Origin: an uncultured Gemmatimonadaceae bacterium
GTDB taxonomy: Bacteria; Gemmatimonadota; Gemmatimonadetes; Gemmatimonadales; Gemmatimonadaceae
Reading direction: 5' to 3'
Assembly: GCA_963829055.1 (NCBI GenBank)
Contig: CAWHHI010000020.1
Span: 352,001-416,000 of the forward strand
Length of the DNA stretch: 64,000 bases
A program made the translations under genes and the position numbers. The notes under the pieces are model-generated. The model was not told the origin of the DNA. It did no database searches and saw only the letters and a program-made list of their open reading frames with translations. This document shows positions 3,632-64,000 of this stretch, piece after piece. The first letter of the stretch is position 1; every line of letters starts with the position of its first letter.

Positions 3632-4720
3632 CTACTTCTGAACTACCAGCGCGGTCACCATCCCGAACATCCCGTGGTCTGATTCCGCGTGCGGGAGGAT
3701 GTGGCAATGGAACGCCCACGTACCAGGGTTGGTGCAGTGCACGATGACGTCCCAGCGTTCGCCGGGGGCCACGTTCAAGGTATCGCACTTCCAGGGCGCC
3801 GGCTGCGCCCAGCCGTCCTTGTCGATCACCGTCATGTGCATCCCGTGCAGATGCATCGGATGGATCATCATCCCTTCGTTCATGAAGCGAATGCGGATCC
3901 GTTCGCCCAGCTTCGCCGTGAGCGGCTCTGTCGCCGGGAAGCCCTTGCCGTTGAACGTGTAGCCGTGCGAGCCGTCGTTCAGGATGAACACGTAGTCGTG
4001 GTCGACCTTCTCGATCGCTCGCGGTGACTTCGGCTCCACGATGAACGCGCCGAGCAGTCCACCGCCGACCTGTTTCGTCGCGTTGTGATGGGAGTGGTAC
4101 ATGTGCGAGCCCGAGTTGCCGTTAGGCACCGTGAACTCGTACGTGAACGACTCGCCCGGCTTGATGGGCGGCTGCGTGATGAACGGCACGCCGTCCTGGT
4201 CCATCGGCAGCTCGAGACCGTGGAAGTGGATGGCGGTCGATTCCGACATCTTGTTGTGCAGAATGACACGGACCCGGTCGCCTTCACGCACGCGGATCTG
4301 CGGACCCGGCACCTGTTCATTGTACGCCATGGCGCTGACGCGCTGGCCGGGCGAGACCTCCCACTGCAGTTCAGTGGCGGTGAGCTCGTAGACCTTGACG
4401 CCATTGTCGATGCGTGGATCGAGCAGCTGGTTGCCCTTCCCTTCCGTCTTCGCGGGGAAGGCCTTGATCCCCGCCTCGTGCATCCGGTCCATCTCGTCCG
4501 ACTTGGCTCGGGGCGACAATGCGACTGGTGCTGCGGCCGCGGCTTTCGCCGGCGTCGTGGGTGTCGATGGCGCTGGTGCAGCGTTGCTCTTGCTGCACGC
4601 GGCCAGTGCGCCTGCACCGAGCGCGGCCAGAGCACCGTCGCGCAGGAAGCGGCGGCGATCGGTTGGGGCGGCTGTGGGAACCAACGCGTCCACTGTATTG
4701 GGCAATGAGGTATCGGGCAT
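3632..4720 (-). CDS. Tat-exported two-domain multicopper oxidase (small-laccase type)
   Basis: TDRRRFLR Tat motif, possible lipobox LAAC; HFHG and YHSH in domain 1; HPMHLHG and HCHILPHAESDHGM in domain 2. Confidence 0.9.
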   Translation of the reverse strand: MPDTSLPNTVDALVPTAAPTDRRRFLRDGALAALGAGALAACSKSNAAPAPSTPTTPAKAAAAAPVALSPRAKSDEMDRMHEAGIKAFPAKTEGKGNQLLDPRIDNGVKVYELTATELQWEVSPGQRVSAMAYNEQVPGPQIRVREGDRVRVILHNKMSESTAIHFHGLELPMDQDGVPFITQPPIKPGESFTYEFTVPNGNSGSHMYHSHHNATKQVGGGLLGAFIVEPKSPRAIEKVDHDYVFILNDGSHGYTFNGKGFPATEPLTAKLGERIRIRFMNEGMMIHPMHLHGMHMTVIDKDGWAQPAPWKCDTLNVAPGERWDVIVHCTNPGTWAFHCHILPHAESDHGMFGMVTALVVQK

Positions 4721-5018
4721 ATGTGATTTGCTCCGGTTGTCGTCGGCGGCAGTCGGGACAACCGGATAGTCGTCGCTCGGGGCACCTCAGTATGTCGGGC
4801 GGGCGTCTCGACCTGCCTCGGTGGATCCGGAGCCTTTCTGTAGGGGATCTCCCGACACTGCGAGTGGCCGCAGGGGATCCCGCCCGTTCGCGTGCGTGAA
4901 ATCCCTGAGATGGATTGCGGCAACCACCCGACGCTCCCGTCGCGTCGGTTGCACGACCTTCGGGTTGACACCGCCGCTCGGCTCGTGACCGCGGTGGTCC
5001 GCCCGACGGAGGTTCGCG

Positions 5019-5701
5019 ATGACATTCCCGATGAGATTCCCGGTGACGTTGGGTATCCTGGCAGCGGCGTTGTGGACCGTGGCGCCGGCGGGAGCCCGTT
5101 CGGCTGCCGCGCGCGGCGCCCAGGAAGACCCCGTGCGCGCTGAGAGTCGAGTCTGGATCACCGGCTCATCAACATCCGCCGGTTCACGTGCCGCGCGGGT
5201 GGATTGTCGGCCAGCGTCGCGTTGCGCGCGGACGCCACGCACCAGGCGTCGCTCACCGGCCACAACGTGGCCCAGGCGCCGTCACTGACGGTGCCGTTCG
5301 CGCAGCTGGATTGCGGCATCGGGATCATGAATCGGCATCTGCAGCAGACCGTGCATGCCGACGCTCACCCTGCCGTGAGCTTCCGGCTCGAACGGTACGA
5401 AGCCGTCGTCGCCGGTGCTGTGCCGACCGTGCGCCTCGTCGGACGCCTCGCCATTGCCGGGGTCGAGAAGCCTGTCGTGGTCGACGCACGATTGGCGGCC
5501 GACTCGTCGGGCGTCCTCCACGTCCAGGGCGTCTACGTCGTCCGCATGACCGATTTCGGCGTCACGCCGCCGCGGCGGTTCGGTGGCCTGCTCGCGGTAC
5601 GTGACAGCGTCACCGTGCACTTCGATGTGGTGCCGACGGATGACGACGCGCTCGATTCGAACTCCATCCCTGACGTGCTCGCCGCACCTCTGACCCTCTG
5701 A
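5019..5701 (+). CDS. YceI-family protein (frameshift near 5175)
   Basis: Signal peptide and ESRVWITGSS in ORF 5019..5288; LDCG..MNRHL...GRLAIAGVEK...MTDFGVTPP in ORF 5204..5701. Confidence 0.8.
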
Positions 5702-5713
5702 CGCGACCTTCCC

Positions 5714-6640
5714 ATGTGCCCGATAGCCGACACCGCACCCACCATGACGACGCCGACCACGGACGCGCCTAACGCCCCAGTGCTCGTGGCAACCGACGGC
5801 CTGCACGATTCCGACGGATCCGTTCGCGTCGGACTCGCGCTCGCGCGGCGTGACGGCACTTGTGTCGAACTGTTCAGCGTGGTCGAGCCAATGCCCCAGT
5901 TCGATGAAATGGTCGCTGCCAGCGACATCGACCTGCTCACGAGCATCACGAGAGAGTCGCGGAACGCAGCCCTTCTCGCGCAGCGCGATCGTACACACCC
6001 CGGCATGCGCGACTGGCCGTTTACCATTCAGACCGGCGATCGCGTGGAACGCATCGTCGAGACCGCCGAATCGATTCGGGCGTCGTTCATCGTTCTCGGG
6101 CTGGGAGCGCACGGCCTCACAGCGCGCCTGCTTCAGCGGGAGACCGCGGTGCGCGTGATGCGGGCGTCTCGCACCCCTGTCCTGGCCGTGCCTAACGATG
6201 CGTGGGGCGTCCCGCACAGTGCCCTGGCGGCGATCGACTTCACCGCGTCGAGTGACCGCGCAGCGCGCGCCGCACTCCGGCTGCTCGGAACGGAAGGCAG
6301 GCTCTATCTCGCGCACGTCACACCGCGCATCCCGATGCCACTCGCCGACTCTCGGCAGTGGGACGACCTGACTGGCGCCGGCGTGTTGTCGCGACTCTCC
6401 GTGCTCGCGAAGCGCCTGGCACCTCCGCCGGGCGTGGAGATCGAGTTCGTGTCGCTGCACGGGGAACCGGCTCACGAGCTGCTGGCGTTCGCCGACCAGC
6501 GTCACATCGACCTCGTTGCCGCCGGCGCGCACGGCAAATCGGCTTTCGAGCGGCTCGTGCTCGGGAGCGTGTCGACGACGCTGGTCCGTACCGCGCGGTG
6601 CTCTGTGCTCGTCGCGCCCGCGGACGGGTCGGCGACGTAG
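5714..6640 (+). CDS. Tandem-domain universal stress protein
   Basis: VLVATDG...IVLG; second domain AIDFT...GAHGKSAFERLVLGSVSTTLVRTARCSVLV. Confidence 0.92.
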   Translation: MCPIADTAPTMTTPTTDAPNAPVLVATDGLHDSDGSVRVGLALARRDGTCVELFSVVEPMPQFDEMVAASDIDLLTSITRESRNAALLAQRDRTHPGMRDWPFTIQTGDRVERIVETAESIRASFIVLGLGAHGLTARLLQRETAVRVMRASRTPVLAVPNDAWGVPHSALAAIDFTASSDRAARAALRLLGTEGRLYLAHVTPRIPMPLADSRQWDDLTGAGVLSRLSVLAKRLAPPPGVEIEFVSLHGEPAHELLAFADQRHIDLVAAGAHGKSAFERLVLGSVSTTLVRTARCSVLVAPADGSAT

Positions 6641-8266: not shown

Positions 8267-9491
8267 CTAAGGCCTCGTTACGCGTGAGCTTCGTCCCGAC
8301 GTACGCGCCAACCATCGCGCGAGCAACGTGAAGCGCTCGTAGTACGCCCACTTCAGCCACCGCCTGAAGTACACGAAGATCCGCGAATCGGCCCAGAGGG
8401 CACGGTACAACACCAGGCTGTGCCGAGGGCCGAGCGAGAGTCCGTAGAAGAACTCGCGACGAAGCTGATGTTCGGGCCCCTCGTCATCACCCCACGGCCT
8501 GGCCATCCGTCGCGCGAGCAGCGCGCCCTGCCAGATGGCCTCGATCGCCCGCTGCATCGTGGGCCATGCGGAGCCGTCGACGACGACCTGCGCGGCATCG
8601 CCGATCGCGTAGACGCCGTCGACGTCGTGCACAGCGAGGCGACGCGTGATCGCAATGCGGCCGTCCGACGTGAGCGGAAGCCCGAACGCTTTCACAACAG
8701 GGTTCGGTCGAACACCTCCAGCCCAGACGACGACATCACTCGGCACGTGTTCACCGTCGTCGAGCACTACCGAGTCGGCGGTGACATCGCTGACCATGCG
8801 GCCCAGGATGCGGCGGACCGCCGAGGCGGTCGAGCACCACCCCCGCGTGGTGGGCGACGCCTGGCGCGAATTCGGGAAGTAACCTCGCCTCGCGCCCGAC
8901 GACGGTCACCACGGGCTGTAGACCGCCGATCGGGCTCGCCGAGAGCTCCGCTGCCCACTCGACCCCCGTGATCCCGATGCCGACGATCGTTAGGCGCGCC
9001 GGCACTCCGGTGGCCGTGTGTACTCCATGAATTCGTTCGCGGAGCTCGAGCCCGTCGGTGATCCACTTTGCGGGGACGATTCCGCGCTGGGCGAGGGCCG
9101 CCGGGATTGCCGACTCGCTACCGACCGCAACCACGAGCCGGTCGTACGGCACAGGCGAGCCGCCGTCGATGTGGAGCAGTCGGGCGCGCGTATCGACGCC
9201 GGTTGCGGCATCGCGAATGAAACCGGCCCCGATCGACGCGCAGAACGCTTCGATGTCGAAGAGGAGGGACTGGGGTGCAGTCACCCCGCCTGCTGCCTCG
9301 TGGGCGAGCGGGACATAGGGGTGGTGAGAGCGGGGCTCGACGACGGTCAGCTCACCCGGGGAGAGCCGGCCTCGGCGACGGGTGTAGCGGTACAGGAACT
9401 CGAGCCCCGCGAAGGAACACCCCACGAGCACGATCCGGGGACGCGTCACTTCCCGTCTCCCCACCTTCGCTGCGCTCGCTTCCGAAGACAA
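8267..9491 (-). CDS. NDH-2-like FAD-dependent pyridine nucleotide-disulfide oxidoreductase (frameshift near 8815)
   Basis: RIVLVGCSFAG, VPYDRLVVAVGS, IVGIGITGVEWAAEL; C-terminal ORF VVVWAGGVRPN...VYAIGDAA. Confidence 0.8.
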
Positions 9492-9543: not shown

Positions 9544-9582
9544 GCCTAACGAAAACGTGCGGTGCTGCGACTCGACTGGATC

Positions 9583-10751: not shown

Positions 10752-10953
10752 CTCGGATCCTCGGCCAGGAGGGTTGCGGATACGTTACTGCCGCGACGGC
10801 TTCTCGGGTAGCAGGCACCGGTCCCTTCCCGCGTCCACCAGGGGCTCGTCGTGCGCTCACGTTAGGCTGGGCGGACGTCGAGCCCGCCGGCAACGAGTCG
10901 GCGGGCTCGACCTCAAGAGCGGGATTGCAGGATGGTGGCTGCTTGCTGCTTTG

Positions 10954-11023: not shown

Positions 11024-11239
11024 ACAGGATTGGCAGGATGGACAGGATTGAACAGAGGCTCCGTGTCGCGCCCAACGCCCCTCCCGCAACGAGCCCAGGA
11101 TGAGAGGAACAGCCGCTCGGGACGCCACTCTCCCCGAGATGTGTTCCTACATTCGTTAGGCCCCGGCGACGCGCTCCCCGACGCCGAAGCGGTCATCTTC
11201 TCAATCCTGCCAATCCTGGCCATCCTGTCCTGCAGTTGC
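11024..11239. repeat. Inverted pair of (NNCAGGATN)3 nonamer arrays
   Basis: ACAGGATTGGCAGGATGGACAGGATTGA (11024) versus TCAATCCTGCCAATCCTGGCCATCCTGT (11201), followed by GCAGTTGC complementary to the microsatellite. Confidence 0.8.
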
Positions 11240-11927: not shown

Positions 11928-12986
11928 TCAGTATCCGGCGACTTCGATGACAGCGTCGGCAAAGGCCTTCGGTGCCTCCTGCGGCAGATTGTGGCCGACG
12001 CCCTTGATGATCCGGTGGGTTCGCTTGCCCGTGAACTTGCTGGCGTACGATGAACCGTCTGTGGCAGGGGCGACACCATCGGAATCGCCATCGAGCGTGA
12101 TCGTGGGCACGCCAATCGCCGGGCCTAACGCCAGCTTCTTTTCGAGCTCGGCGTATTGCGGCTCGCCGTCGGCCAGGCTCAGACGCCAGCGGTAGTTGTG
12201 GATCACGATGCTGATGTAATCCGGGTTGTCGAACGACGCCGCGGCGCGATCGAACGCGGCGTCACTGAAGTTCCACTTCGGTGAGTTCGCCTTCCAGATG
12301 AGATTCGCGAATTCGCGCCGGTTCGCGTCGTACCCCGCGCGGCCGCGTTCCGTCGCGAAGTAGAACTGGTACCACCATCCGTGCTCGACCTTCGGCGGCA
12401 ACGGCAGCTTGTTGCGCTCGAGGTTGTTGATCAGGTACCCGTTCACCGACACCATGGCCTTGCACCGCTCCGGCCAGAGCGCCGCGATGATGTTGGCGGT
12501 TCGCGCTCCCCAATCATAGCCGGCCAGGATCGGCTTCTCGATCCGGAGCGCATCCATGAACGCGATGATGTCGAGTGCGACGGCGGCCTGCTGCGCATTT
12601 CTGAAGGTGGCGTCTGAAAGAAAACGCGTGGTGCCGTGCCCGCGCAGATGCGGCACGATCACGCGGAAGCCGGCTGAGGCGAGCAGAGGCGCGACATCGA
12701 CGAAGCTGTGGATGTCGTACGGCCAGCCGTGCAGCAGCATCACCACGGGACCGTTCGCCGGTCCGGATTCGGCGTATCCGACGTTCAGCACCCCGGCGTC
12801 GATCTGCTTGAGCGGCCCGAACGACGTGTTCGTTTCTGACTTCATCGGCGGAAGGCGCGCGGGCAACGTCTCACTGGCGTCGGCGTCGCCAGCGCTGAAC
12901 ATGCCGAGTCCCGCACCGGCGATGGTCATGGCCGCGGTGCCTAACAGGCGACGGCGGTCGTGATCGACGTGCTCATTGATATTCAC
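11928..12986 (-). CDS. Tat-signal alpha/beta hydrolase (epoxide-hydrolase-like)
   Basis: DHDRRRLLG leader; LLHGWP, GYDWGA, GHNLPQE. Confidence 0.9.
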   Translation of the reverse strand: MNINEHVDHDRRRLLGTAAMTIAGAGLGMFSAGDADASETLPARLPPMKSETNTSFGPLKQIDAGVLNVGYAESGPANGPVVMLLHGWPYDIHSFVDVAPLLASAGFRVIVPHLRGHGTTRFLSDATFRNAQQAAVALDIIAFMDALRIEKPILAGYDWGARTANIIAALWPERCKAMVSVNGYLINNLERNKLPLPPKVEHGWWYQFYFATERGRAGYDANRREFANLIWKANSPKWNFSDAAFDRAAASFDNPDYISIVIHNYRWRLSLADGEPQYAELEKKLALGPAIGVPTITLDGDSDGVAPATDGSSYASKFTGKRTHRIIKGVGHNLPQEAPKAFADAVIEVAGY

Positions 12987-13258: not shown

Positions 13259-13417
13259 GGCCTCTCCCCCGTGGTTGCTTCGTGCCCCTTACCGTGAGAT
13301 GACACGTGAGATGACAATGCGGCATTCCAGGGCGGACGTCGATCATCCTTTGGTGTCGGTCTGCGGCCAGCATGGGCGACTGAGCGCTCCATGGATGCCT
13401 AACGCCACGAGATGGGC

Positions 13418-17730: not shown

Positions 17731-17951
17731 TTGCACGATGGTATCGACCACCGGCGAGGCGCGTTAGGCAGTATGCTACCGCCGGCGTGCGACACGCGGG
17801 AGCTGCTGGGGCGCCGCCACCCGCCCGCGAGCGGCTCGTCCTCGAGCCCGCGTGCCGTCGATGTCGGCCGGATGCCGCCGCTCGGTGGGGCGACCCACAG
17901 CCGCCCGGCCTCACGTGCGGCTCGCCTTCCCGGATCAATACCAAGGTATGA
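17731..17951. promoter_or_regulatory. Two class A operators in a divergent promoter region
   Basis: TTGCAC-GATG-GTATCG (17731) and CAATAC-CAAG-GTATGA (17936). Confidence 0.65.
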
Positions 17952-21583: not shown

Positions 21584-21620
21584 CGGAGAAGTCGCGATCG
21601 TCATCGCCTAACGTGGGAAA

Positions 21621-23305: not shown

Positions 23306-23347
23306 AACGCGCAATCCACCAGGTATTGCCTAACGCTGGTGGTGTGA

Positions 23348-23749: not shown

Positions 23750-23840
23750 GTGGATCTTCTCCGTCCTGACCACTGGAGTGATGGAATGCGGGAGCAGACG
23801 ACGCGCACGTTAGGCGCATCGTCTGCTCCCTGACAACGCG

Positions 23841-25386: not shown

Positions 25387-25420
25387 TTGCACGATGGTAT
25401 CGATCGATACCTAGGTATCG
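25387..25420. promoter_or_regulatory. Tandem class A operators
   Basis: TTGCAC-GATG-GTATCG, AT, then the perfect palindrome CGATAC-CTAG-GTATCG. Confidence 0.75.
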
Positions 25421-25552
25421 CCTAACGATTTCTCGCCATGACCGCCCGGCCACGGCTCGTGCCGATCCGCGCGAAAGCGAGATAGCCGGGTAGCACAGCG
25501 GCGCGCCTAACGGGCGCGCCACTGACTGTACGACCGGCGAGCTGGCGGTGAG

Positions 25553-46592: not shown

Positions 46593-46596
46593 CTCG

Positions 46597-51645: not shown

Positions 51646-51866
51646 CTCCGCTCCGCTCGCTCTCGCAGCGTCGCGTGGCGGCTCTCCATGCTGTGGCATC
51701 AGGTGACCAGCTCCCCGCGCCCCGCCGCTGCGGCCTAACGCGAGTCGGCCGACGAAGGAGGCACGCCATTGCCGTTAGGCAGATCGACGCGAATGTCATG
51801 CGTGGCCGCGCGCAGCCCGCCAGCAAGGGTAGGAGGCTTCGGGCGACGCGCCCATTATACCTTCGG

Positions 51867-55700: not shown

Positions 55701-57315
55701 CGACGGCTCCCGGTGCGAATGGTCGCGCGTTCACCTCGAAGTCGAACGTGGGCTCGTCGTCGTCGAGGTCGACGCGTCCACTCCCGAGAATGCGCAGTGG
55801 CATCGCGTCGCGTTCGGCGTATCGAATATCGGCGTCGACGATGCGCAGATGCTGCGGCGTGGAGTCCAGCGTCACGGATCCGACGAAGCGTCCGCTGAGC
55901 GGCGGCAGCGCCGGCACGATGCCGCGGATCGTGCGCGCGTCGATGGGATTCGCCGCCAGCACCAGCTTCGAGAATGCGACACCGGCCTCACCGCCTAACG
56001 TGATCGACCCGTGGCCGGTCACGCGATTCGCGCTGCCTGGCACGGTCTCATCGGCATACCGGGCGTCGAGACTGTCGATGTGGAGCGCGGGATCGGTCGC
56101 GCTCCCATGGGCAACGACGCGTCCGGTCAGTCCGCCGCGCAGCGCGGGTGGGATCGCGTCCCCGGCCAGGATGCGCAGCAGGTCCGTATGCAGCGGAGCC
56201 AGGTCGAGCGCCGCGTGTTGGATCGTCACTGCATTCGCTTCGCTCGATGCGCTCACCTCGACGCTCACGTCGCCACGCAGACCCGAGCGCGCGGCGTGCA
56301 GGTCGGCCCCGGAGACGCGGTACGTGGTCGGCTGGCTCCCCCCCGCCGACGTCACCGCGAGCTCGAGGCGTCCTCCCCCAACCGTCGGCAGGTCAGGCAG
56401 AAACGCCGCGAGGTCCGCGAGTGCGAGCGTATCGGCAGTGATCGTCGCGTCGATCATGGGCGTCCCGGCCGCGCCCCAGTCCACGTGCCCGCGCGCGTGC
56501 AGTGCAGTCAGACCGACGGCCACGGTTGGCAGGTCCACCGTGGCAGCCTCTCCGACCAGCGCGACGCGACCCGCGATGCGATGCACCGCGAGCGGCGGGT
56601 CGTCGACGGCGACGGAGAGGCTCGTCAGGTTCGCGATCGCCGTGGTATCGCCGATCTCGGTGCGAATGAGCGGCGCATCGATGGTGATCGCCGTGATCGC
56701 CCGGCGTCTGACGAGCGCGGTGCCGACGCGGCGAACGACCGGCAGATGGCTGGTGAGCGCGGCGGCGATCGCACGGTCGCGCGCCGCGCCACGCAACGAG
56801 TCGGGTGGTGCCCACGGCACCTCGAGGAACACCGCGCCCTGAGACACGTGCACCGAGCCATCGACAACCACGCGTGCCGGTCCGGTGCTTGGCGTTGGTG
56901 GTGACGTGTCTGGTCGAATGGCGCGCGACCAGTTCCACACACCCGACGGGGCTTGACGCACGACGACGTACGGCCGCGCCACGTCGAGTGACGTGACAAC
57001 GAGCCGCTGCTGAATCAGCGCGCCGAACCGGCACGTGGCGCGCGTGGGACCAAGCGCCACGAGCAGCGAGTCATCCGGGCCGCGAAGGGAAACCGAGTCG
57101 ATCGCCAGCGCGCATCCGGGGCCGAACCGCAGCGCGCCGAGGTGCAGCGACCCGAGCAGGTAGCGCTCGGCGATCTGCACGGCCACCTGCCTAACGCGCT
57201 CACGGCCGAACGCGGATTGCGTCACGAGCACGAACGCGACGAGCAGCACGCCGATGAGCGTCGTCAGGCCCACGCCGGCCCACCTGATGCCGCGGACCCA
57301 CCAGGGGCGCGCCAT
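52780..57315 (-). CDS. tamB: Translocation and assembly module TamB
   Basis: 1511 aa, N-terminal TM, long beta-rich region, C-terminal GSVQFTGEPEMNPRLDI...LGGTLERPVLTL, ends WRF; adjacent to an Omp85 gene. Confidence 0.9.
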   Translation of the reverse strand: MARPWWVRGIRWAGVGLTTLIGVLLVAFVLVTQSAFGRERVRQVAVQIAERYLLGSLHLGALRFGPGCALAIDSVSLRGPDDSLLVALGPTRATCRFGALIQQRLVVTSLDVARPYVVVRQAPSGVWNWSRAIRPDTSPPTPSTGPARVVVDGSVHVSQGAVFLEVPWAPPDSLRGAARDRAIAAALTSHLPVVRRVGTALVRRRAITAITIDAPLIRTEIGDTTAIANLTSLSVAVDDPPLAVHRIAGRVALVGEAATVDLPTVAVGLTALHARGHVDWGAAGTPMIDATITADTLALADLAAFLPDLPTVGGGRLELAVTSAGGSQPTTYRVSGADLHAARSGLRGDVSVEVSASSEANAVTIQHAALDLAPLHTDLLRILAGDAIPPALRGGLTGRVVAHGSATDPALHIDSLDARYADETVPGSANRVTGHGSITLGGEAGVAFSKLVLAANPIDARTIRGIVPALPPLSGRFVGSVTLDSTPQHLRIVDADIRYAERDAMPLRILGSGRVDLDDDEPTFDFEVNARPFAPGAVAQSYPELANIPNVDGQFRVRGTARDLSLDGTARSIAGSVTLVGRYHDDKSGPAIRATAQVRGANARAATGRPSVPDGALDASVDVDLAGESFSALRGTAALTNLNGTIAGITVQPSNVRLTLTESRVVADSVVVATSAGTVQLHGALGLHANVGDTLNLTTSLSLAELGPILRALGVGDTVARETAQSEKRSQIDSIAGTLVARARLTGSVDSLDASGEVEVTGMTSPSGNVARARATATMTGLRSTPRGQATLRVDSVTAGGLSFASLSATARSDDGHRWEVALATADADQLGGGALGAVSVRGDTVAVDLDSLAVRYPGVDVHLTRPTRFRRVGDGTIALDTMELRGGRGALARLSGVYRDTGSIAVALDVADVPLLIPGPGGPRDSLRVLIDATARLEGTALVPRGTGRLRARLPQLDSMYVDSVVADVSYAENKVRVSVEARQGARSLLAARADGPVRLSLSPAKAELLDEPITGTVAIDSLYLPDITRLIPGIHIAAGVLRTQITLSGTARRPRAVGTASLSGGAARIDALGIGVHDANAAIELASDRITIAQATVRGDGDAGGRAELKGVLGISDTSTVDLRLRTSSMALMRLAETADLDVTTDLRLAGSATRPTLSGKITVDRGVLRLPDMGRAGVVGVDDTAFVRLVDSLAPAHLERSDTSSILQRVAIADVNVAMGPNVWLRSAEASVQLGGSIGLERAASQPGVAGGQIALRGALVTQRGTYRLNLGAFTRTFELEQGSVQFTGEPEMNPRLDINAVYAREADESSRSSGGRAPRVRAHLGGTLERPVLTLSSADSKLSQAELMSYLITGQSGHAVGNAFNQGAVTSELVATATSAVAQRLAGGMFDVVNVTPGAATDRNDGSSQSAANAFYASRLGVGKQLTSRLFLKVDAGLCALTGGTTSTNLGETLGVSLDYRFHRGLLGSVSSAPSTNGATCANEAAARGSALTPRQWGLDFDRVWRF

Positions 57316-59600
57316 CAGAACGCCTGCCCGATCGAGAAGTGGATCGTCAATCGATCGAAGAACCCACTCGGGCGACTCGGCTGGAACGTGGAGGGGCAGA
57401 ACCCTTCGGCCTGCGTCGGCAGAATGGGATTACCCTGCGCGTCCGTTTGCCCGAACCCGCTAACCGGGAGCGTGTTGCCGATACTCACGCAGTACAACGG
57501 CGCGTTGGCGTACCCGACGGGCGCGTCCCGATAGGCAGGCCCCAGCGGACTCCGGTACGAGTTTCCCGCGATGTCCAATCGGATCGGACCGATCGGCGTC
57601 GAGATGCGCACCCCTAGTCCCGGGGTGAGAAACAGTGTCGTGTTGGTGAGCTGTGGCTCACCGATGACCCACACGTTGCCTGCATCGACGAATAGCACGA
57701 ACTGCAGGAGCGACGTGAGGATGGGGGGCCGAATCCGGAGCTCGAGATTTGCGACCGCCGATGCCGAGCCGCCGGTTGGGACGGCGCGCCACTCGGTGCT
57801 GTCGGGCGGCAGCGCCCAGAGGAGCGTGTCGGTACCCTGCACCACCGCGCGAATGCTGTCCGCGAGGTAGACACGCGGCCCGACCTCGTTCTGGTGGAAC
57901 CCGCGCACCGTCGACGCGCCGCCGGCGAAGAGTCGCTCGGCCTGCGGAATGAAGTCGCCCCCCGGAAGTCCGGCGACGACCGACGCCTGCGCGCGCGCTG
58001 CCAACACCATGGTTGGCGTGAGCGGAAAATAGGCCGCGGCGTTGACTCGCCCGCCGATGATCTGCTGACGCACCGCCGTGCCCAGCCACTGCGGGGCAAT
58101 CCGCATCTCCGTCTGGAACGATCGCCCGCGGGTCGGATCCGTCGGCGTGTCGGTGTTGTCGTACGTCACGACGACGCTGGCCAGCCCGAACGGCAATGCC
58201 TCCGTGAACTGCTCCCGGTCGGACGCGAGGCACGCCGAGAAGGTCGCGCACAACACGGCCGGCTGTGCCTCGGTGCGTCCGTAGCTCAGGTCGTACACGA
58301 GTGCGCCGCGCCAACGACGACCGATCGCGCGCGACGCCGATGCCGAGCCGCCAATGCTCGTCGTTTTCAGGTACGCGAGATACTCGGACCGCCGCTCGGT
58401 GTACAGCGACACGGAACGCGTCCAGGCGCCTAACGATGCCAGCGCATACGTGCCGCCGACGTAGTAGTTCAATTTGGCACTGTACGGATCGGCCTGGGCC
58501 TCGCTCGAGCAGGCGCTGGGCGCAAAATCGAGCGGGTCGCCGACGGCGACCTTGGACAGACGCGTCGTGAGCTCGAGGCGCCCTGGTTGGTTGAATACGC
58601 CCGTCCGACGGGCCTGCAACTGGAGGCGAAAGCAATCGAGCGTTGCGTAGCCGGCGCGCAAACGCACCTCGTGTGGCGGCCCTTCAACGACAGCCACGTT
58701 GACATTGGCCGTCCCGTCGCCTCCATCACCGCTCGCCGGACTGCGAATGCTGTCCAGCGTGATCCGAACCTCCTCGAAGAGCCCGACGGCGTCGAGCCCG
58801 CGTCTGGCCTCGCTCAGTTCCTGGGTGCCGAGGACGGACCCGGTCTTGAGTCGCGTGAGGCGCTCGACCTGAGACTCGGGAATGCGCGGCGCGCCGCTGT
58901 CCGCGCCGCGCGCCTCGATCCGCAGCTCGCCCAGGCGGACGCGCGTACCCCGGTCGACATCGATCCATGCCACGCCGTGCTGCGCTCCGGAATCCACACG
59001 CTCGCCGCGTCGCGCGGTCGCGGCGAGATAGCCGGCTCGGCGCAGCCCTACTACCATGGAGGCGCTCGACGCGTCGAGCGAGAAGCGATCGAGTGGCTCG
59101 CCGGGGCGCAGCTTGATGGCGCGTGCGAGCGAGGCGCGCATTGCCGAGTCCTCCACGCCGCGGACTTCGATCGAGTCGACGATGGTCGGCGCATTCTCTC
59201 GAATGGCGAATCGCACTTTCACCGCGCCAAAGCCAGCCGTGTCGACGGCGGCGTCGACGACGACACGCGGATAGCCCTTGCGACGATAGAGCAGCATCAG
59301 CCGCGCGGCGTCACGAAGCAGGGCCCCCTGGACCAGGCATCGACGCGCTCCGAACAGGCGAGTGACGCGTCGCACGCTCGATGACGGTGCCGTCTCGATG
59401 ATGTCCTCGAGCGTCAGGGACGGAATCGCCTTGTTCCCGCTGAACGAGATGGCCTTCACCTCGGGCGCGGACCCGCTGCACGTCGCCTGCGCGAGCGCGC
59501 GAACGGGAACGACGGCACCGAGGCTGAGGACGAGTAACGTCGCGAGTGCCACGCCGCGACGTCGCGCCGGTGGCCTCGCTGCGCCATGGATGGGGATCAC
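57315..59600 (-). CDS. tamA: Omp85-family outer-membrane protein (TamA/BamA-like) with POTRA domains
   Basis: ISFSGNK POTRA; RLFAGGASTVRGF, FVDAGNVW, GVRISTPIGPIRLD, HFSIGQAF. Confidence 0.88.
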   Translation of the reverse strand: MIPIHGAARPPARRRGVALATLLVLSLGAVVPVRALAQATCSGSAPEVKAISFSGNKAIPSLTLEDIIETAPSSSVRRVTRLFGARRCLVQGALLRDAARLMLLYRRKGYPRVVVDAAVDTAGFGAVKVRFAIRENAPTIVDSIEVRGVEDSAMRASLARAIKLRPGEPLDRFSLDASSASMVVGLRRAGYLAATARRGERVDSGAQHGVAWIDVDRGTRVRLGELRIEARGADSGAPRIPESQVERLTRLKTGSVLGTQELSEARRGLDAVGLFEEVRITLDSIRSPASGDGGDGTANVNVAVVEGPPHEVRLRAGYATLDCFRLQLQARRTGVFNQPGRLELTTRLSKVAVGDPLDFAPSACSSEAQADPYSAKLNYYVGGTYALASLGAWTRSVSLYTERRSEYLAYLKTTSIGGSASASRAIGRRWRGALVYDLSYGRTEAQPAVLCATFSACLASDREQFTEALPFGLASVVVTYDNTDTPTDPTRGRSFQTEMRIAPQWLGTAVRQQIIGGRVNAAAYFPLTPTMVLAARAQASVVAGLPGGDFIPQAERLFAGGASTVRGFHQNEVGPRVYLADSIRAVVQGTDTLLWALPPDSTEWRAVPTGGSASAVANLELRIRPPILTSLLQFVLFVDAGNVWVIGEPQLTNTTLFLTPGLGVRISTPIGPIRLDIAGNSYRSPLGPAYRDAPVGYANAPLYCVSIGNTLPVSGFGQTDAQGNPILPTQAEGFCPSTFQPSRPSGFFDRLTIHFSIGQAF

Positions 59601-59881: not shown

Positions 59882-61516
59882 ATGTATGAGTTGGCGTGGC
59901 GTGACAGAGCGATCGTGGTCCTGCTCGCGATGGTCGCGTCGGCCGGCTTCCTCGGCGCGCAGTCCAGCCAGGAACCAAAGCCGGCACCACCGGTGCCGTC
60001 GCCTAACGGGACCGTGTCGTCTATCCAGATCGAGCGCGAGAACGTGTTCGACAAGGCCGAGCGTGAGCGATGGCTCGCGCGCGTGATGAACGGGCTGCAC
60101 ATCGTGACGCGCGAGCCGGTGGTGGCTCGTGAGATGCTGTTTCGCCAGGGCCAGCCGTTCGATTCTACAGAGTTCGCGGAGACGGCGAGAAATCTTCGAA
60201 AGCTCGATGTCTTTCGTGCCGTTTCGGTCGACAGTGCCACGACGGATTCCGGGCTCGTCGCGCTCGTCACCACGCGTGATGCCTGGACGACCCAGCCCTA
60301 CGCGACCTTCAAGTCCGCCGGCGACCAGATCACGTGGGGCATCGGGATGCGGGAGAAGAACCTGCTCGGGTTGGGGATCAAAGCCGGCGTCCGCTATACG
60401 AGCGATCCGGACCGGTCTACCACGTCGTTCACGGCCAACCTCCCTCGCATCTTGCAGGACCGGGTCGATTTTTCAGGGTCGTACGACCTGCTCTCCGACG
60501 GAGAGCGGGGGCGCTTCACCGTGGCGGCGCCGTACACGGCGCTCACGACTCCACGGTCGGCGTCCTTCGAGTGGCTGTACGACGACATCGATATCCTCCG
60601 GTTCTACAACGGTGAGGAAGAGGCGAGCGATACGGTGCGCCGCCTGATGTCCAGTGTGACGCTGCGCGGCGGGCGGGCCAAGAAGGCGTCGCGCGTCGGC
60701 TATCTCAGAACCGGCGTGGCGCTCCGGGCCCGTCGCGACGACTTCCGCGACCTGACCGAGCCGGAGATCGCCAAGGCGGATCGCTCGGTCTTCGGTGATC
60801 TCGAGATGAGCCTCGAGTCGAGCAGCTCGAAGTACCTGGTAATACGCGGGTATCGGAATCTCGTCATGAACGAGGACGTCGATCTCAGTCGCACCATCCG
60901 CGTGAGCCTCTGGGTCGCGCCGTCAGCGCTGGGCTACGAACGAACGGGATTCGGTCCGGCGATGACCATGCACACGGGCAGGCAGTTTTCGAAGGGGTTC
61001 ACGTATTCGGATCTGCGCGCGTCGTCGCTGTTCACCAGCAGCGGTCTCGATTCGGGAAGTGTCGCGGGTCTGGCCGTCCTCTTACTGCACCCAGCACCGC
61101 GGCATGCGGTGGTGTTCAACGTCAACGCCGGGATGCAGAAGAACGCGCATCCCGGGGCGGAATTCGACCTCGGCCTAACGTTTGGGCCGCGCGGCTTTCC
61201 GGCCCACTCGTTCACGGGCGACCGCGCGTTCTTCACGACGGCGGAATATCGGTGGCTCGCCATCCCGGATATCATGGGGCTGGTCGCCGTGGGGCTGGCC
61301 GGGTTCGCCGACTACGGCGGCGCGTGGTACTCCGGATCGCCGAGCCGCACCGGCACGGATGTGGGCATCGGGCTCCGATTCGGGTCCATCCGGGGATCGG
61401 CAACCAAGGGCGCGACCCGCATCGATCTCGCGCACCGGTTCGCGAATGACGCGTTAGGCGCGAAGTGGGTCATCGCCATCGGCTCCGGCTTTGCGTTCGA
61501 CCGACCGCCGCCGTAA
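59882..61516 (+). CDS. Omp85-like surface-antigen protein with one POTRA
   Basis: TREPVVAREMLF..G..FD...ETARNLR, EKNLLGLG, PRGFP, FADYGGAW, DVGIGLRF. Confidence 0.8.
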   Translation: MYELAWRDRAIVVLLAMVASAGFLGAQSSQEPKPAPPVPSPNGTVSSIQIERENVFDKAERERWLARVMNGLHIVTREPVVAREMLFRQGQPFDSTEFAETARNLRKLDVFRAVSVDSATTDSGLVALVTTRDAWTTQPYATFKSAGDQITWGIGMREKNLLGLGIKAGVRYTSDPDRSTTSFTANLPRILQDRVDFSGSYDLLSDGERGRFTVAAPYTALTTPRSASFEWLYDDIDILRFYNGEEEASDTVRRLMSSVTLRGGRAKKASRVGYLRTGVALRARRDDFRDLTEPEIAKADRSVFGDLEMSLESSSSKYLVIRGYRNLVMNEDVDLSRTIRVSLWVAPSALGYERTGFGPAMTMHTGRQFSKGFTYSDLRASSLFTSSGLDSGSVAGLAVLLLHPAPRHAVVFNVNAGMQKNAHPGAEFDLGLTFGPRGFPAHSFTGDRAFFTTAEYRWLAIPDIMGLVAVGLAGFADYGGAWYSGSPSRTGTDVGIGLRFGSIRGSATKGATRIDLAHRFANDALGAKWVIAIGSGFAFDRPPP

Positions 61517-62412: not shown

Positions 62413-62476
62413 AAACGCGACCCACACCGTGGTCGCGTCTCACTCCCATTCATCCAATCCCTTTCGGAGGTTCGTG

Positions 62477-63041
62477 ATGCCCTGGCTCATTCGACGCGCG
62501 CACCGCGCATCAACCACTCGGCGTGGTGCCGGAGCTGTCCCTCTCGTGGCGGCGGCACTGGTGCTCGCAGGCTGTGCGAGCTCCGTCCATGTGGCCACCG
62601 ACTACGATCGCGGCAGCGAACTTCACGTCGTACAAGACGTACTCGTGGCGGGACGGAACGAAGCTGCCCAATCCACTCATGTCCGAGCGCCTGGTTAGTG
62701 CCGTGGACGCGCAGCTCGCGTCGAAGGGCCTCTCGAAAGTCGAGACCGGTGGCGACCTCACGGTGACGTACCACGCCTCGGCCGAGAAGTCGGTCGACGT
62801 GCAGACGTTCCAGACGGGCGGGACGTACGGGTGTTGGGGTGGGTGCGGATCGACGTCCACGAGTGTCACCCCGGTGACCCACGGCACGATCATCGTCGAT
62901 CTCGTCGATGGGAAGAGCAACAAGATGCTCTGGCGCGGCACCGCGTCCGACGCGGTGTCGGATAACCCGAAGGAGAACGAGGGGAAGATCAACGAAGGTG
63001 TCGCGAGGATGTTCAAGGACTACCCGCCGAAGAAGGCCTGA
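62477..63041 (+). CDS. DUF4136-like lipoprotein (frameshift near 62610)
   Basis: LAGC lipobox, VATDYD; FTSYKTYSW...GTIIVDLVD..LWRG...FKDYPP. Confidence 0.82.
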
Positions 63042-63198
63042 TCACCTCGCCTAGCGGGTGATTAGCGAAGCCCGGCCGGTCGAAGCACGATCCACCGCGG
63101 CAGTAACGACTCCGGGTCGGAGTCCACGCTGCTCGCGGTGGATCGCGTTCATGGCGCTGCTGGCGACGATCCAGGAAATCGGACGGTAGCGACCCTTC

Positions 63199-64000
63199 GT
63201 GCACATCAAACTGGCGGGCCTTTGCCTCGCGTTAGGCGCCGGAGTGGCCGAGGCGCAAAAAACCGATTCAGTTTGGATCCGCAACGGAGACCGGATCACC
63301 GGCGAGGTGAAGTCGCTCTCCCGGGCACTGCTCAAGTATTCCACCGATGACCTTGGCACGATTTACATCGAGTGGGACAAGGTCGCTCGAATCAGCAGCC
63401 CGGCCACGTACGAGGTGCAACTGAGCTCGGGGCAGAAGTACTTCGGAACCCTCGGGTTGTCTCGCGAAGGTACGTTGGTGATCGGCGTCGACACGCTTTC
63501 CCTGGTCGACATCGTGACGATCACGCCGATCAAGGGACAGCTGCTCTCACGCATTGACGGCTACCTGGATCTCGGATTCTCCTACCAGAAGGCCAACAAG
63601 ACGGTCCAGCTCACGAGCTCGGCGAGGGTCGTGTACCGGGGACCGCTCGCGGAGACCACCTTCGATATCACCACGTTCCGTGAGGATCGGGAAGACGCGG
63701 AGGAGACCGCACGACTCTCGACCAGCCTCACCGAGCGGTTGCTGCTCCCGGACCGCTGGAACACGGGGTTCGTTCTTGGCTACGACAGAAACGAAGAGCT
63801 GGATCTGGCGGGGCGCGGACGGCTCGTCGGTTTCGGAGGCCGGTCGCTCAACCGATCCAACCACATCGACGCCCGGGCCAGCGCAGGCCTCGTGCTCACG
63901 CGCGAGCGATACTTCTCCGTTGATTCGACGTCCACCGGCGTCGAGGGACTCGTCGGGATCTGGTTCGCCGCGTTTCGCTACGATCGTCCCAAGCTCGATG
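63199..64000 (+). CDS. DUF481-like outer-membrane beta-barrel protein, partial
   Basis: Open frame to the window edge: AQKTDSVWIRNGDRITGEVKSL...IDGYLDLGFSYQKAN. Confidence 0.72.
   Translation, partial: MHIKLAGLCLALGAGVAEAQKTDSVWIRNGDRITGEVKSLSRALLKYSTDDLGTIYIEWDKVARISSPATYEVQLSSGQKYFGTLGLSREGTLVIGVDTLSLVDIVTITPIKGQLLSRIDGYLDLGFSYQKANKTVQLTSSARVVYRGPLAETTFDITTFREDREDAEETARLSTSLTERLLLPDRWNTGFVLGYDRNEELDLAGRGRLVGFGGRSLNRSNHIDARASAGLVLTRERYFSVDSTSTGVEGLVGIWFAAFRYDRPKLD

What the first reader, a model, noticed from the sequence alone, without database searches (positions are those of the whole stretch)
4120..63237. Highly iterated non-palindromic octamer GCCTAACG / CGTTAGGC, a possible uptake-sequence-like genome signal
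Seen: by hand I count 51 perfect copies, 32 as GCCTAACG (e.g. 5767, 6190, 9544, 19215, 27883, 28060, 50172, 54805, 60001) and 19 as CGTTAGGC (e.g. 4120, 8988, 21997, 35731, 53640, 63230), plus about 19 one-off variants keeping CCTAAC. That is about one per 1.25 kb; a zero-order estimate at ~67% GC gives 2-3 copies. It occurs between genes and inside genes in five frames: CCT-AAC (Pro-Asn), CTA-ACG (27883, 28060, 50172), TTA-GGC (54805, 55174, 55993), GTT-AGG (57189) and as the TAA stop (31161, 46595). CTA, TTA and AGG are normally avoided at this GC, so the bias acts on DNA, not protein. Known: similar density and frame independence characterise Neisseria DUS, Pasteurellaceae USS and cyanobacterial HIP1. 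Inference: an uncharacterised DNA-uptake, recombination (Chi-like), nucleoid-protein or methylation/repair-linked signal. I know of no description of it.
Basis: partly seen in the sequence, partly recalled or inferred. Interest (0 to 1): 0.88.

Follow-up and report, generated by a model that had tools for sequence, protein, structure and literature searches.

The report
Hyper-abundant genome word GCCTAACG
This soil-type bacterium has written one eight-letter DNA word about five thousand times through its genes and spacers against its own codon habits, in the way known from bacteria that tag their own DNA for uptake, and the word is spelled like the core recombination site of integron gene cassettes, but what reads it is still unknown.

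Summary
GCCTAACG occurs 51 times in the window (32+/19-) against 1.2 in shuffles. It occurs 5004 times in the 7.78-Mb genome: 19x an order-3 Markov expectation, and 21x a synonymous-codon shuffle of predicted genes. It is a bare 8-mer, on both strands, with no replichore skew, in all four stop-free frames and between genes.

New here:
- Copies repel each other below about 400 bp.
- 51% of sites sit at the same codon position in a congener with saturated silent sites, against 21% for one-off variants.
- Richness is patchy. It was found only in this order among 301 genomes of the phylum, and it switches on and off within one genus.
- Word-poor relatives carry the word mainly as the R' core (C|GTTAGGC) of their integron attC arrays.

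No tested candidate reader tracks richness: IntI, ComEC, pilins, Vsr, VirB4, four methylase families and an AddA-like nuclease.

Best reading (0.4): an uptake-sequence-like self tag kept by a recombination-linked drive. Its function is untested. The scan noted this word before, on other Gemmatimonadota windows.

The parts
4120..4127 (-). word copy, intergenic
5767..5774 (+). word copy in Usp gene 5714-6640(+), read G-CCT-AAC-G
6190..6197 (+). word copy in gene 5714-6640(+), read G-CCT-AAC-G
8988..8995 (-). word copy in gene 8751-9491(-), read GC-CTA-ACG
9544..9551 (+). word copy, intergenic
10860..10867 (-). word copy, intergenic
11154..11161 (-). word copy, intergenic
12123..12130 (+). word copy in hydrolase gene 11928-12986(-), read CG-TTA-GGC
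13397..13404 (+). word copy, intergenic
15554..15561 (-). word copy in gene 15285-15773(-), read G-CCT-AAC-G
17762..17769 (-). word copy in epoxide hydrolase gene 16410-17981(-), read G-CCT-AAC-G
19215..19222 (+). word copy in histidine kinase gene 18775-20514(+), read G-CCT-AAC-G
19860..19867 (+). word copy in gene 18775-20514(+), read G-CCT-AAC-G
20938..20945 (+). word copy in response regulator gene 20921-21583(+), read G-CCT-AAC-G
21606..21613 (+). word copy, intergenic
21997..22004 (-). word copy in gene 21673-23040(-), read GC-CTA-ACG
23328..23335 (+). word copy, intergenic
23808..23815 (-). word copy, intergenic
25420..25427 (+). word copy, intergenic
25505..25512 (+). word copy, intergenic, 85 bp after the previous one
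27883..27890 (+). word copy in sensor kinase gene 27150-30233(+), read GC-CTA-ACG
28060..28067 (+). word copy in gene 27150-30233(+), read GC-CTA-ACG
28795..28802 (+). word copy in gene 27150-30233(+), read GC-CTA-ACG
31423..31430 (+). word copy in gene 30191-31825(+), read G-CCT-AAC-G
34189..34196 (+). word copy in kinase gene 34147-36597(-), read CG-TTA-GGC
35731..35738 (-). word copy in gene 34147-36597(-), read GC-CTA-ACG
36663..36670 (-). word copy, intergenic
38298..38305 (+). word copy in gene 37827-39437(-), read CG-TTA-GGC
38805..38812 (-). word copy in gene 37827-39437(-), read GC-CTA-ACG
39925..39932 (-). word copy, intergenic
42041..42048 (-). word copy in my call 41569-42150(+), read CG-TTA-GGC
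44451..44458 (+). word copy in gene 44433-44780(-), read CG-TTA-GGC; kept in 4 of 4 aligned congener loci
44856..44863 (+). word copy, intergenic; congeners have GCCTGACG (0 of 4 kept)
45455..45462 (+). word copy in gene 45384-45902(-), read C-GTT-AGG-C; kept in 4 of 4 congener loci
47052..47059 (-). word copy, intergenic; kept in 3 of 4 congener loci
48133..48140 (+). word copy in gene 47147-50275(+), read G-CCT-AAC-G; kept in 1 of 1 congener locus
50172..50179 (+). word copy in gene 47147-50275(+), read GC-CTA-ACG; kept in 1 of 1
51733..51740 (+). word copy, intergenic, first of a convergent pair 40 bp apart
51773..51780 (-). word copy, intergenic, second of the convergent pair
53640..53647 (-). 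word copy in TamB-like gene 52780-57315(-), read G-CCT-AAC-G; 0 of 1 kept
54805..54812 (+). word copy in TamB-like gene, read CG-TTA-GGC; 0 of 2 kept
55174..55181 (+). word copy in TamB-like gene, read CG-TTA-GGC; 2 of 2 kept
55993..56000 (+). word copy in TamB-like gene, read CG-TTA-GGC; 2 of 2 kept
57189..57196 (+). word copy in TamB-like gene, read C-GTT-AGG-C; 0 of 2 kept
58428..58435 (+). word copy in Omp85/TamA-like gene 57315-59600(-), read CG-TTA-GGC; 3 of 3 kept
60001..60008 (+). word copy in gene 59825-61516(+), read G-CCT-AAC-G
61173..61180 (+). word copy in gene 59825-61516(+), read GC-CTA-ACG; 0 of 2 kept
61452..61459 (-). word copy in gene 59825-61516(+), read CG-TTA-GGC
63230..63237 (-). 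word copy in gene starting 63199(+), read CG-TTA-GGC

Best explanation
GCCTAACG/CGTTAGGC is a genome-wide, DNA-level 'self' word of the uptake-sequence kind (the DUS of Neisseriaceae, the USS of Pasteurellaceae). Some factor of the cell prefers DNA that carries the 8-mer. Most likely it acts when DNA is taken up or recombined. Alleles that carry the word therefore replace alleles that lack it. Over time the word is written in wherever the protein tolerates it, and it is then held in place. One copy serves a stretch of a few hundred bases, so a second copy close by gains nothing. That would give the observed exclusion zone. The word is spelled exactly like the R' core (C|GTTAGGC) of this order's own integron attC sites. 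Shown: the abundance, the DNA-level nature, the strand and frame independence, the spacing rule, the positional conservation, the patchy on/off distribution and the identity with the attC core. Inferred: that a reader exists, that it acts in uptake or recombination, and that accumulation is a drive and not site-by-site selection.
For: Abundance. There are 5004 copies in 7.78 Mb, 19.4x an order-3 Markov expectation and the top word of all 8-mers with at least 400 copies. In predicted genes there are 3178 copies against 136-163 in 10 synonymous-codon shuffles, and 1242 of 2862 TTA codons lie in the word. Word-poor relatives of similar G+C hold only about 3-8 copies per Mb.
Form. It is a bare 8-mer; no flank carries more than 0.13 bit.
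Placement. Strand counts are 2457 to 2547, with no skew in 50-kb bins. All four stop-free frames are used, and 1495 copies are intergenic.
Spacing. Pair density is 0.17 of expectation at 0-50 bp and rises about linearly to 1 near 400 bp, for every relative orientation. Adjacent pairs under 200 bp number 213 against 604 expected. The same dip is seen in G014 and G001. Even spacing is a reported property of uptake sequences (PMC1939737, passage seen).
Conservation. 48 of 94 sites are shared with congener G001, where third-codon-position identity is 57%. The figure is 35 of 163 for one-off variants and 17.8% for all 8-mers. In genus g46, 17 of 22 sites are shared between G241 and G298.
Writing-in. 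Where a relative lacks a site it has G+C-rich synonyms or near-synonyms, such as GCG-CTC-GGC for GCG-TTA-GGC. The peptide is identical at 9 of 38 to 20 of 46 of the sites that are not shared.
On/off trait. Richness was found only in this order among 301 genomes of the phylum, in about a dozen genera. G294 has 66 copies beside congeners with 3896 and 4141, and shows no relics at 24 aligned sites.
Machinery. ComEC was found in 40 of 41 relatives. G000 itself has DprA, a secretin and 5 pilin-like genes.
attC identity. The arrays in G027 and G025 have attC sites of about 90 nt that end in C|GTTAGGC.
Against: No uptake or transformation has been shown for this organism or its phylum by anything I saw. 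The competence genes found are equally present in word-poor relatives, so they explain nothing about the difference. The three pilin paralogues are present in rich and poor members of genus g46 alike. Closely spaced inverted pairs, common for the DUS, are depleted here: 14 convergent pairs under 100 bp against about 78 expected. The exclusion zone of about 200-400 bp is shorter than the kilobase fragments usually assumed for transformation. A strong intracellular conversion bias or a per-site function would give the same conservation. Earlier scan notes say the same word fills genomes of other phyla. I did not verify that. If true, it needs either a horizontally mobile reader or a very conserved one.
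Confidence: 0.4

Rival explanations
1. The copies are genomic sites for the integron integrase or a related tyrosine recombinase. On this reading, thousands of perfect R' cores act as attG-like landing sites for cassettes, or as binding sites of a recombinase-derived DNA-binding protein.
For: The word is letter for letter C + GTTAGGC. That fits the attC core-site consensus GTTRRRY, and its reverse complement fits RYYYAAC (passages of PMC3053210 and PMC12901181). It is the R' end of nearly every attC in the arrays of word-poor relatives, and of the attC-like hairpins beside G000's own IntI at C20:208041-208958. PMC12901181 cites Loot et al. 2024 for cassette insertion at genomic attG sites; I saw the citation only and did not read the paper. 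Chance identity of the top 8-mer with the clade's own R' 8-mer is about 1 in 30,000 (my own estimate).
Against: IntI over the cut-off is found in 24 of 41 relatives, including many word-poor ones. It is not found intact in the rich genomes G002, G004 and G014. Solitary 8-mers lack the attC hairpin: at most about 55 loci of 5004 copies look attC-like by a loose filter. I can see no step of integrase chemistry that would write lone 8-mers. Landing sites inside genes would be harmful, and second-order selection would not hold 50% of sites in place.
Confidence: 0.15
2. The word is an intracellular recombination or repair signal of the Chi type. It would be read on single strands by a helicase-nuclease and would protect or activate broken DNA.
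For: It is a non-palindromic 8-mer, like Chi of E. coli (recalled). Each orientation occurs about once per 3 kb. G000 has two PDDEXK nuclease domains 3.6 kb apart at C15, an AddAB-like layout.
Against: There is no orientation bias with replication or G+C skew. The RecC family was not found in G000, which is 86% complete. The AddA-like fragment of G000 was not found with that query in the rich genomes G241, G298 and G014, but was found in the poor G294. The AddAB-like frames in G000 are short and look broken. An enrichment of 20-100x against codon usage is far beyond known Chi (recalled). A Chi model does not predict a 400-bp exclusion zone.
Confidence: 0.1
3. The word is a methylation-linked mark like HIP1 of cyanobacteria. 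A cognate methylase would mark it, and the mark would help incoming or resident DNA.
For: HIP1 is also an 8-mer, conserved and quasi-periodically spaced, and is now linked to transformation (abstract of PMC13756078).
Against: The word is not a palindrome. C5 methylase (PF00145) was found in 0 of the 8 rich genomes. PF01555 was found in 0 of 7 genomes of genus g1, and PF02384 in 1 of 7. PF02086 is in all 7 of g1 but also in poor genomes (one of them the unpublished G013), and was not found in the rich G014. Base modification could not be read here.
Confidence: 0.1
4. The word is a pure by-product of a context-specific mutation or mismatch-repair bias (very-short-patch type) and has no reader-dependent function.
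For: A strong conversion bias would both create and hold sites, and could be switched on in single lineages.
Against: Vsr was found in 0 of 5 genomes, 3 of them rich, and no C5 methylase in rich genomes. A local repair bias does not predict that copies avoid each other within 400 bp. Many sites differ from the relatives' sequence at two or more positions.
Confidence: 0.08
5. The copies are an artefact of assembly, or remnants of a mobile repeat.
For: None found.
Against: The same excess is in 7 of 7 assemblies of the genus and in other genera. Sites are conserved at orthologous codons. There is no conserved flank.
Confidence: 0.01

Closest known systems
DNA uptake enhancing sequences: USS of Pasteurellaceae and DUS of Neisseriaceae
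   Same: A short non-palindromic word at about one per 1-1.5 kb. It occurs on both strands without replichore skew, inside genes in several frames and between genes. It is more evenly spaced than chance, shared by related species, and lineage-specific (passages of PMC1939737).
   Different: No uptake bias has been shown. The word is 8 bp with no informative flanks. No inverted pairs serve as terminators. Among the genomes searched it occurs in one order of Gemmatimonadota (the phylum is a lead). The trait is all-or-none between close relatives with no alternative 'dialect' word: G008 has none. The spelling equals the integron attC core.
Integron attC sites (core site R' GTTRRRY, inverse core R'' RYYYAAC)
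   Same: GTTAGGC/GCCTAAC is a perfect instance of the consensus. Relatives' attC arrays and G000's own attC-like sites end in C|GTTAGGC.
   Different: Nearly all of the 5004 copies are solitary 8-mers with no partner box, no hairpin, no cassette and no neighbouring integrase.
HIP1 (GCGATCGC) of cyanobacteria
   Same: A hyper-abundant 8-mer, conserved, quasi-periodic, with an unknown or emerging role in transformation (abstract of PMC13756078).
   Different: HIP1 is a palindrome with cognate methylases. Here the word is asymmetric and no methylase family tracks it. A VirB4-type secretion ATPase was not found in 5 genomes.
Chi and KOPS-type architecture words
   Same: An asymmetric 8-mer spread over the chromosome.
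   Different: No strand or replichore polarity. The excess is far stronger and runs against codon usage.

Membership tests
DUS/USS (DNA uptake enhancing sequences) | Cells take up DNA carrying the word in preference to DNA lacking it | not testable with these tools
   Needs a competent isolate and labelled fragments.
DUS/USS (DNA uptake enhancing sequences) | Genomic excess of hundreds to thousands of copies over expectation | tested here: met
   5004 copies against 257.5 (order-3 Markov). 3178 against about 151 (codon shuffle).
DUS/USS (DNA uptake enhancing sequences) | Both orientations, no replichore bias, in and between genes | tested here: met
DUS/USS (DNA uptake enhancing sequences) | Spacing more even than random | tested here: met
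   The property is cited from a passage of PMC1939737.
DUS/USS (DNA uptake enhancing sequences) | Competence machinery present (ComEC, DprA, type IV pilus) | tested here: met
   The ComEA-like hit is weak (35 bits). The same genes occur in word-poor relatives, so this is permissive only.
DUS/USS (DNA uptake enhancing sequences) | A dedicated receptor (ComP-type minor pilin for DUS) | tested here: inconclusive
   Two of the 5 pilin-like proteins of G000 were searched in 5 genomes. Paralogues are present in rich and poor alike.
DUS/USS (DNA uptake enhancing sequences) | Frequent inverted pairs at terminators (DUS) | tested here: not met
   14 convergent pairs under 100 bp against about 78 expected.
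Integron attC site | Core GTTRRRY and inverse core RYYYAAC | tested here: met
   By direct reading of the word against the consensus quoted.
Integron attC site | Imperfect inverted repeat of 57-141 bp that folds, with both boxes | tested here: not met
   No conserved flank. At most about 55 attC-like loci in the genome by a loose filter.
Integron attC site | Arrayed beside an integron integrase | tested here: not met
   True only for a few sites at C20:173-205 kb beside IntI, not for the window's 51 copies.
Chi | Orientation bias with replication | tested here: not met
Chi | Cognate RecBCD/AddAB in the genomes that carry the word | tested here: inconclusive
   RecC not found in G000. AddAB-like domains are in G000, but an AddA-like match was not found with that query in G241, G298 and G014.
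HIP1-type methylated palindrome | Palindromic word | tested here: not met
   GCCTAACG is not its own reverse complement.
HIP1-type methylated palindrome | Cognate methylase co-distributed with the word | tested here: not met
   Four methylase families were searched in 41 genomes and none tracks richness. Other families were not searched.
KOPS/AIMS | Strong skew towards the leading strand | tested here: not met
REP/MITE-type dispersed repeat | Conserved sequence beyond the core | tested here: not met
   Flank information is at most 0.13 bit.

The most novel reading that the evidence does not exclude
Genome-wide self-tagging and integron cassette traffic use one and the same recognition word. 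On this reading a factor with integrase-like (R' core) specificity reads DNA in word-rich lineages. Every attC-bearing cassette is then a pre-tagged, preferred substrate for capture. The chromosome itself becomes a field of about 5000 perfect core sites. The trait can be switched on within a genus and then writes thousands of copies.
Probability: 0.15. Interest if true: 0.9.

Novelty: new variant of a known kind. Interest (0 to 1): 0.72.

Why it matters
Sequence-tagged self-recognition of DNA is so far established for two proteobacterial families, and is suspected for cyanobacteria. A third or fourth case in an abundant, mostly uncultured soil phylum would show that such tags are a general solution.

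This case has three features of particular use. It has natural on/off contrasts between congeners, which makes the unknown reader findable by comparative genomics. It has a measurable spacing rule of a few hundred bases. It has the same spelling as the integron core site, which bears on how cassettes move and are captured in soil communities.

On the practical side, the word is so sharp a signature that it exposes foreign blocks in metagenome bins.

Tried and rejected
- Maximal-order Markov model. The word does not stand out, because its own 7-mers are equally enriched. This test is uninformative, not a refutation.
- Xer/dif link. Two dif-like candidates were found. Neither holds the word, and only 6 word copies follow TTAT.
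- IntI as the discriminating gene, and ComEC likewise. Both are present in rich and poor genomes.
- Pilin repertoire. No presence/absence difference in genus g46.
- Vsr and VirB4. Found in 0 of 5 genomes each.
- Four methylase families. No association with richness.
- AddA-like nuclease. Found only in the poor G294 among the 5 genomes searched.
- Dense clusters of the word as a pointer to a reader gene. Nothing structured was found, apart from a few attC-like pairs.
- Word-free stretches of 10-16 kb as mobile elements. They hold ordinary metabolic genes. Their number (13 over 10 kb) is near the exponential tail (about 7), so no claim is made.
- TamB orthologues across 41 genomes. The window's gene is a paralogue with true orthologues in three genomes only, so the loci were not used for site mapping.
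- An alternative 'dialect' word in the poor G008. None was found in 400 kb.
- Literature. In the rows listed (20 of 478, 15 of 807 and 12 of 210 papers), the word appears only in unrelated papers, seemingly as primers, and no paper joins Gemmatimonadota with uptake sequences.

Full report
**Observation**

In 100 dinucleotide-preserving shuffles the mean is 1.21 and the largest count is 5.

By my own crude gene calls, 34 copies lie in predicted genes and 17 between them. These calls come from a codon-usage scorer trained on long frames of this genome; they cover 74% of the genome and are certainly imperfect. The frames are CCT-AAC x11, CTA-ACG x10, TTA-GGC x11 and GTT-AGG x2. The genes around the copies are ordinary chromosomal ones: two-component systems, four epoxide-hydrolase paralogues, and a TamA/TamB-like pair.

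**Genome-wide**

The window is G000:C20:352001-416000, in a genome of 7,784,024 bases in 20 contigs at 66.7% G+C. The word occurs 5004 times, 2457 forward and 2547 reverse. That makes it the 14th commonest of all octamers although three of its letters are A or T.

- An order-3 Markov model expects 257.5 copies. At 19.4x the word tops all 8-mers with at least 400 copies, and the rest of the top list consists of its own overlapping words.
- A maximal-order model is blind to the word, because its 7-mers are equally enriched.
- Shuffling synonymous codons within each predicted gene gives 136-163 copies in 10 shuffles, against 3178 observed.
- 1242 of 2862 TTA codons, 586 of 4235 CTA codons and 456 of 7355 AGG codons lie inside the word.
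- The signal is a bare 8-mer: no flanking position carries more than 0.13 bit.
- Of the 5004 copies, 1495 are intergenic, 351 straddle a predicted gene end, 1469 are in sense and 1689 in antisense. All four frames without a stop are used.
- In 50-kb bins the two orientations stay balanced. Word skew correlates weakly with G+C skew (rho -0.20, p 0.02) and not with gene-strand skew (rho -0.11).

**Spacing**

Copies avoid each other at short range. The counts of adjacent pairs are:

| Distance between adjacent copies | Observed | Expected for random placement |
|---|---|---|
| under 50 bp | 28 | 158 |
| under 100 bp | 69 | 312 |
| under 200 bp | 213 | 604 |
| under 400 bp | 719 | 1135 |

Over all pairs, the density relative to expectation runs 0.17, 0.26, 0.39, 0.52, 0.73, 0.81, 0.92 in successive 50-bp bins. 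It reaches 1 near 400 bp, alike for direct, convergent and divergent pairs, and without an overshoot.

The dip is also seen in 295 kb of G014 (0.24 and 0.47 in the first two 100-bp bins) and in 338 kb of G001 (0.25, 0.08, 0.33). Uneven density would produce the opposite effect, so the dip is real.

A linear ramp is what one expects if one copy serves a unit of DNA a few hundred bases long and a second copy within the same unit adds nothing. A hard steric footprint would give a gap followed by an overshoot. This interpretation is my inference.

**Conservation**

In BLASTN alignments of window 44001-64000 to congeners at about 70% identity, 20 of 32 site-by-genome pairs keep the word, against 9.1% of other octamer windows.

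I then built codon alignments from one-way best hits, with G000 proteins against sampled DNA. Orthology rests on the best G000 query for each region plus thresholds on identity and coverage. The results are:

| Compared genome | Orthologues | Amino-acid identity | Third-position identity | G000 sites shared | Other genome's sites shared | Background identical octamers |
|---|---|---|---|---|---|---|
| G001 (same genus, rich) | 169 | 81% | 57% | 48 of 94 | 48 of 84 | 17.8% |
| G014 (another genus, richer) | 135 | 63% | 45% | 10 of 53 | 10 of 137 | 6.8% |
| G008 (word-poor) | 61 | 56% | 49% | 0 of 38 | none present | 6.3% |

The excess over background is significant for G001 (binomial p 2e-13) and for G000's sites against G014 (p 0.003), but not for G014's sites against G000 (p 0.73). 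One-off variants of the word are kept only at 35 of 163 positions in G001, so the conservation is specific to the perfect word.

Most sites therefore arose separately in the two rich genera. Where one genome has the word and the other does not, the other has G+C-rich synonyms or near-synonyms (GCCGAGCG, GCCGAACG, GCCCAACG). The commonest case is Ala-Leu-Gly written GCG-TTA-GGC instead of GCG-CTC-GGC. The encoded peptide is identical at 20 of 46, 8 of 43, 33 of 127 and 9 of 38 sites that are not shared. Amino-acid identity at word codons is equal to or slightly below the background. So the word is written into tolerant positions, mostly silently, and is then held.

**Distribution**

Among 41 relatives, all 7 genomes of the genus are rich (2501 to 5112 copies), and G014 has 6360 copies in 5.1 Mb. 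Several genera are intermediate, with 170-600 copies. The rest hold 3-65 copies, well below a reversed-word control.

Among 301 genomes sampled evenly from the phylum, rich genomes occur only in the window's own order. They belong to about a dozen genera of family f1 (for example G305 with 4469, G241 with 3896, G298 with 4141) and to one genus of f2 (181-1061). No genome of the other families or classes exceeds 70 copies. These tallies include the unpublished genomes G013, G086, G125 and G204.

The word-poor G008 has no other hyper-abundant word in 400 kb; its top octamer reaches an observed/expected ratio of about 4. The trait is therefore present or absent, not replaced by a dialect.

Within genus g46, G294 has 66 copies beside 3896 and 4141 in its congeners. 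G241 and G298 share 17 of 22 and 17 of 21 aligned sites. At 11 and 13 aligned sites G294 has no copy, and every listed word there differs at two or more letters. The trait was thus most likely switched on after that split, and thousands of copies accumulated within genus-level divergence.

The phylum is probably Gemmatimonadota. This is only a lead, from the nearest protein clusters of the TamA-like gene.

**The integron link**

I tested this.

- In word-poor relatives the few copies are clustered on one strand about 600 bp apart. At G027:C95 and G025:C3 each such copy is the right end of an inverted-repeat site of about 90 nt, reading GCCTAACA...C|GTTAGGC. That is a textbook attC array.
- The consensus is RYYYAAC for the inverse core and GTTRRRY for the core, with crossover after the G. 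I take this from passages of PMC3053210 and PMC12901181.
- G000 has an integron integrase at C20:208041-208958, scoring 265.7 bits against a cut-off of 265.
- Beside that integrase lie attC-like hairpins with the same core, for example L030:9101-9191 (91 nt, -22.9 kcal/mol), and a loose series back to C20:173 kb.
- The bulk of the 5004 copies are not attC sites. They have no conserved flank. Convergent pairs at attC distances are depleted. A permissive scan finds at most about 55 attC-like loci.
- Integrase presence does not track richness. It is over the cut-off in 24 of 41 genomes, many of them poor. It is only fragmentary or missing in the rich G014, G002 and G004.

That the top octamer should equal the clade's own R' octamer by chance is about 1 in 30,000 by my estimate. 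Any explanation must account for this, but I cannot say how.

**Search for a reader**

| Candidate | Result |
|---|---|
| ComEC | in 40 of 41 relatives |
| Competence-type genes in G000 | DprA, a secretin, a weak ComEA-like hit, five pilin-like genes |
| Two pilin-like proteins of G000 | paralogues in rich and poor members of g46 alike |
| Vsr | 0 of 5 genomes |
| VirB4 | 0 of 5 genomes |
| C5 methylase (PF00145) | 4 of 41, none of them rich |
| PF02384 | 16 of 41; 1 of 7 in the genus |
| PF01555 | 16 of 41; 0 of 7 in the genus |
| PF02086 | 17 of 41; all 7 of the genus, several poor genomes, not the rich G014 |
| RecC | not found in G000 (86% complete) |
| AddA-like fragment of G000 | matched only the poor G294 among 5 genomes |

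No dif-like site carries the word. All absences above mean 'not found in those searched'.

**Reading**

The features are those of uptake enhancing sequences: extreme excess against codon usage, strand and frame independence, over-even spacing, conserved positions, and restriction to particular lineages. Even spacing and the lack of orientation bias are quoted for those sequences in PMC1939737.

I therefore favour an uptake- or recombination-linked drive, at 0.4. Against it stand several points:
- No transformation is known to me for this group.
- The competence genes do not discriminate rich from poor genomes.
- Inverted pairs are absent.
- The exclusion zone is short.

The rivals are an integrase-related role (0.15), a Chi-like signal (0.1), a methylation-linked mark like HIP1 (0.1; abstract of PMC13756078), and a bare repair bias (0.08).

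**Novelty**

Three searches of the paper library found the word only in unrelated papers, seemingly as primers, and found no paper joining Gemmatimonadota with uptake sequences (only the 20, 15 and 12 rows listed, of 478, 807 and 210 papers, were seen).

The scan itself has noted the same word before, on other Gemmatimonadota windows (e1-7736792, e1-7820584, e1-7737463). By its notes, the word is also in another soil group and, as TCGTTAGGC, in Verrucomicrobia (e1-7819028, e1-3015718). I did not verify the cross-phylum claims.

**A caution about the assembly**

Three blocks without a single copy lie at contig ends: C6:5440-55037, C11:1-46789 and C6:591808-623330. The first two hold housekeeping genes. 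FtsK, DAHP synthase, peptidase M17 and FolD each have a second copy elsewhere in G000 at 47-59% identity. These blocks are most likely DNA of another, word-poor organism joined into the bin.

Noticed in passing
G000 contigs outside the window: C6:5440-55037, C11:1-46789, C6:591808-623330, C2:33099-43593: Blocks of 10-50 kb at contig ends hold not one copy of the word. The first two hold housekeeping genes whose second copies lie elsewhere in the genome at 47-59% identity. C2's end holds a 98% identical piece of the block's FtsK. This is probably foreign DNA joined into the bin. The word could serve as a check on binning.
   Followed up: partly
G000:C20:173000-209000 (about 144 kb before the window): An integron. 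The integrase is at C20:208041-208958(-), and attC-like hairpins lie downstream on the same strand (for example C20:205101, 197207, 192696, 183882, 173525). Their spacing of 4-10 kb is much wider than usual cassettes.
   Followed up: partly
L001/L002 (G027:C95:1-24000) and L003 (G025:C3:1-8000): Large integron cassette arrays in word-poor relatives. There are about 31 and 8 cassettes of roughly 500-700 bp, with very uniform attC sites of about 90 nt that end in CGTTAGGC.
   Followed up: partly
window 16410-26785: Four paralogous epoxide-hydrolase genes (EHN N-terminal domain plus alpha/beta hydrolase) lie within 10 kb, all on the - strand, interleaved with a two-component system.
   Followed up: no
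G000:C4:2850-3281 (L031): A 143-residue frame holds only the N-terminal SAM-like domain of an integron integrase (105 bits, model positions 2-104). It is cut off beside an ABC transporter. It looks like a remnant.
   Followed up: partly
genus g1, 7 genomes: Three major DNA methylase families are almost unrepresented in these 5.7-7.8 Mb genomes: PF00145 in 0 of 7, PF01555 in 0 of 7, PF02384 in 1 of 7. That is unusual for large soil genomes.
   Followed up: no
G000 generally; e.g. C15:11616-16049, L022-L029: Many frames are short and match only parts of Pfam models (AddAB-like, chorismate synthase, methylmalonyl-CoA mutase). My gene caller covers only 74% of the genome. The assembly may carry frameshift errors.
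   Followed up: no
G000:C18:97494-97548: A perfect 55-nt palindrome bounded by the word on both arms (GCCTAACGAAACAG...CTGTTTCGTTAGGC), folding at -32.6 kcal/mol.
   Followed up: no
G000:C20:119251-119513: Four copies alternate in orientation at 83, 90 and 82 bp. They look like two adjacent attC-like sites without cassettes, far from the integrase.
   Followed up: no
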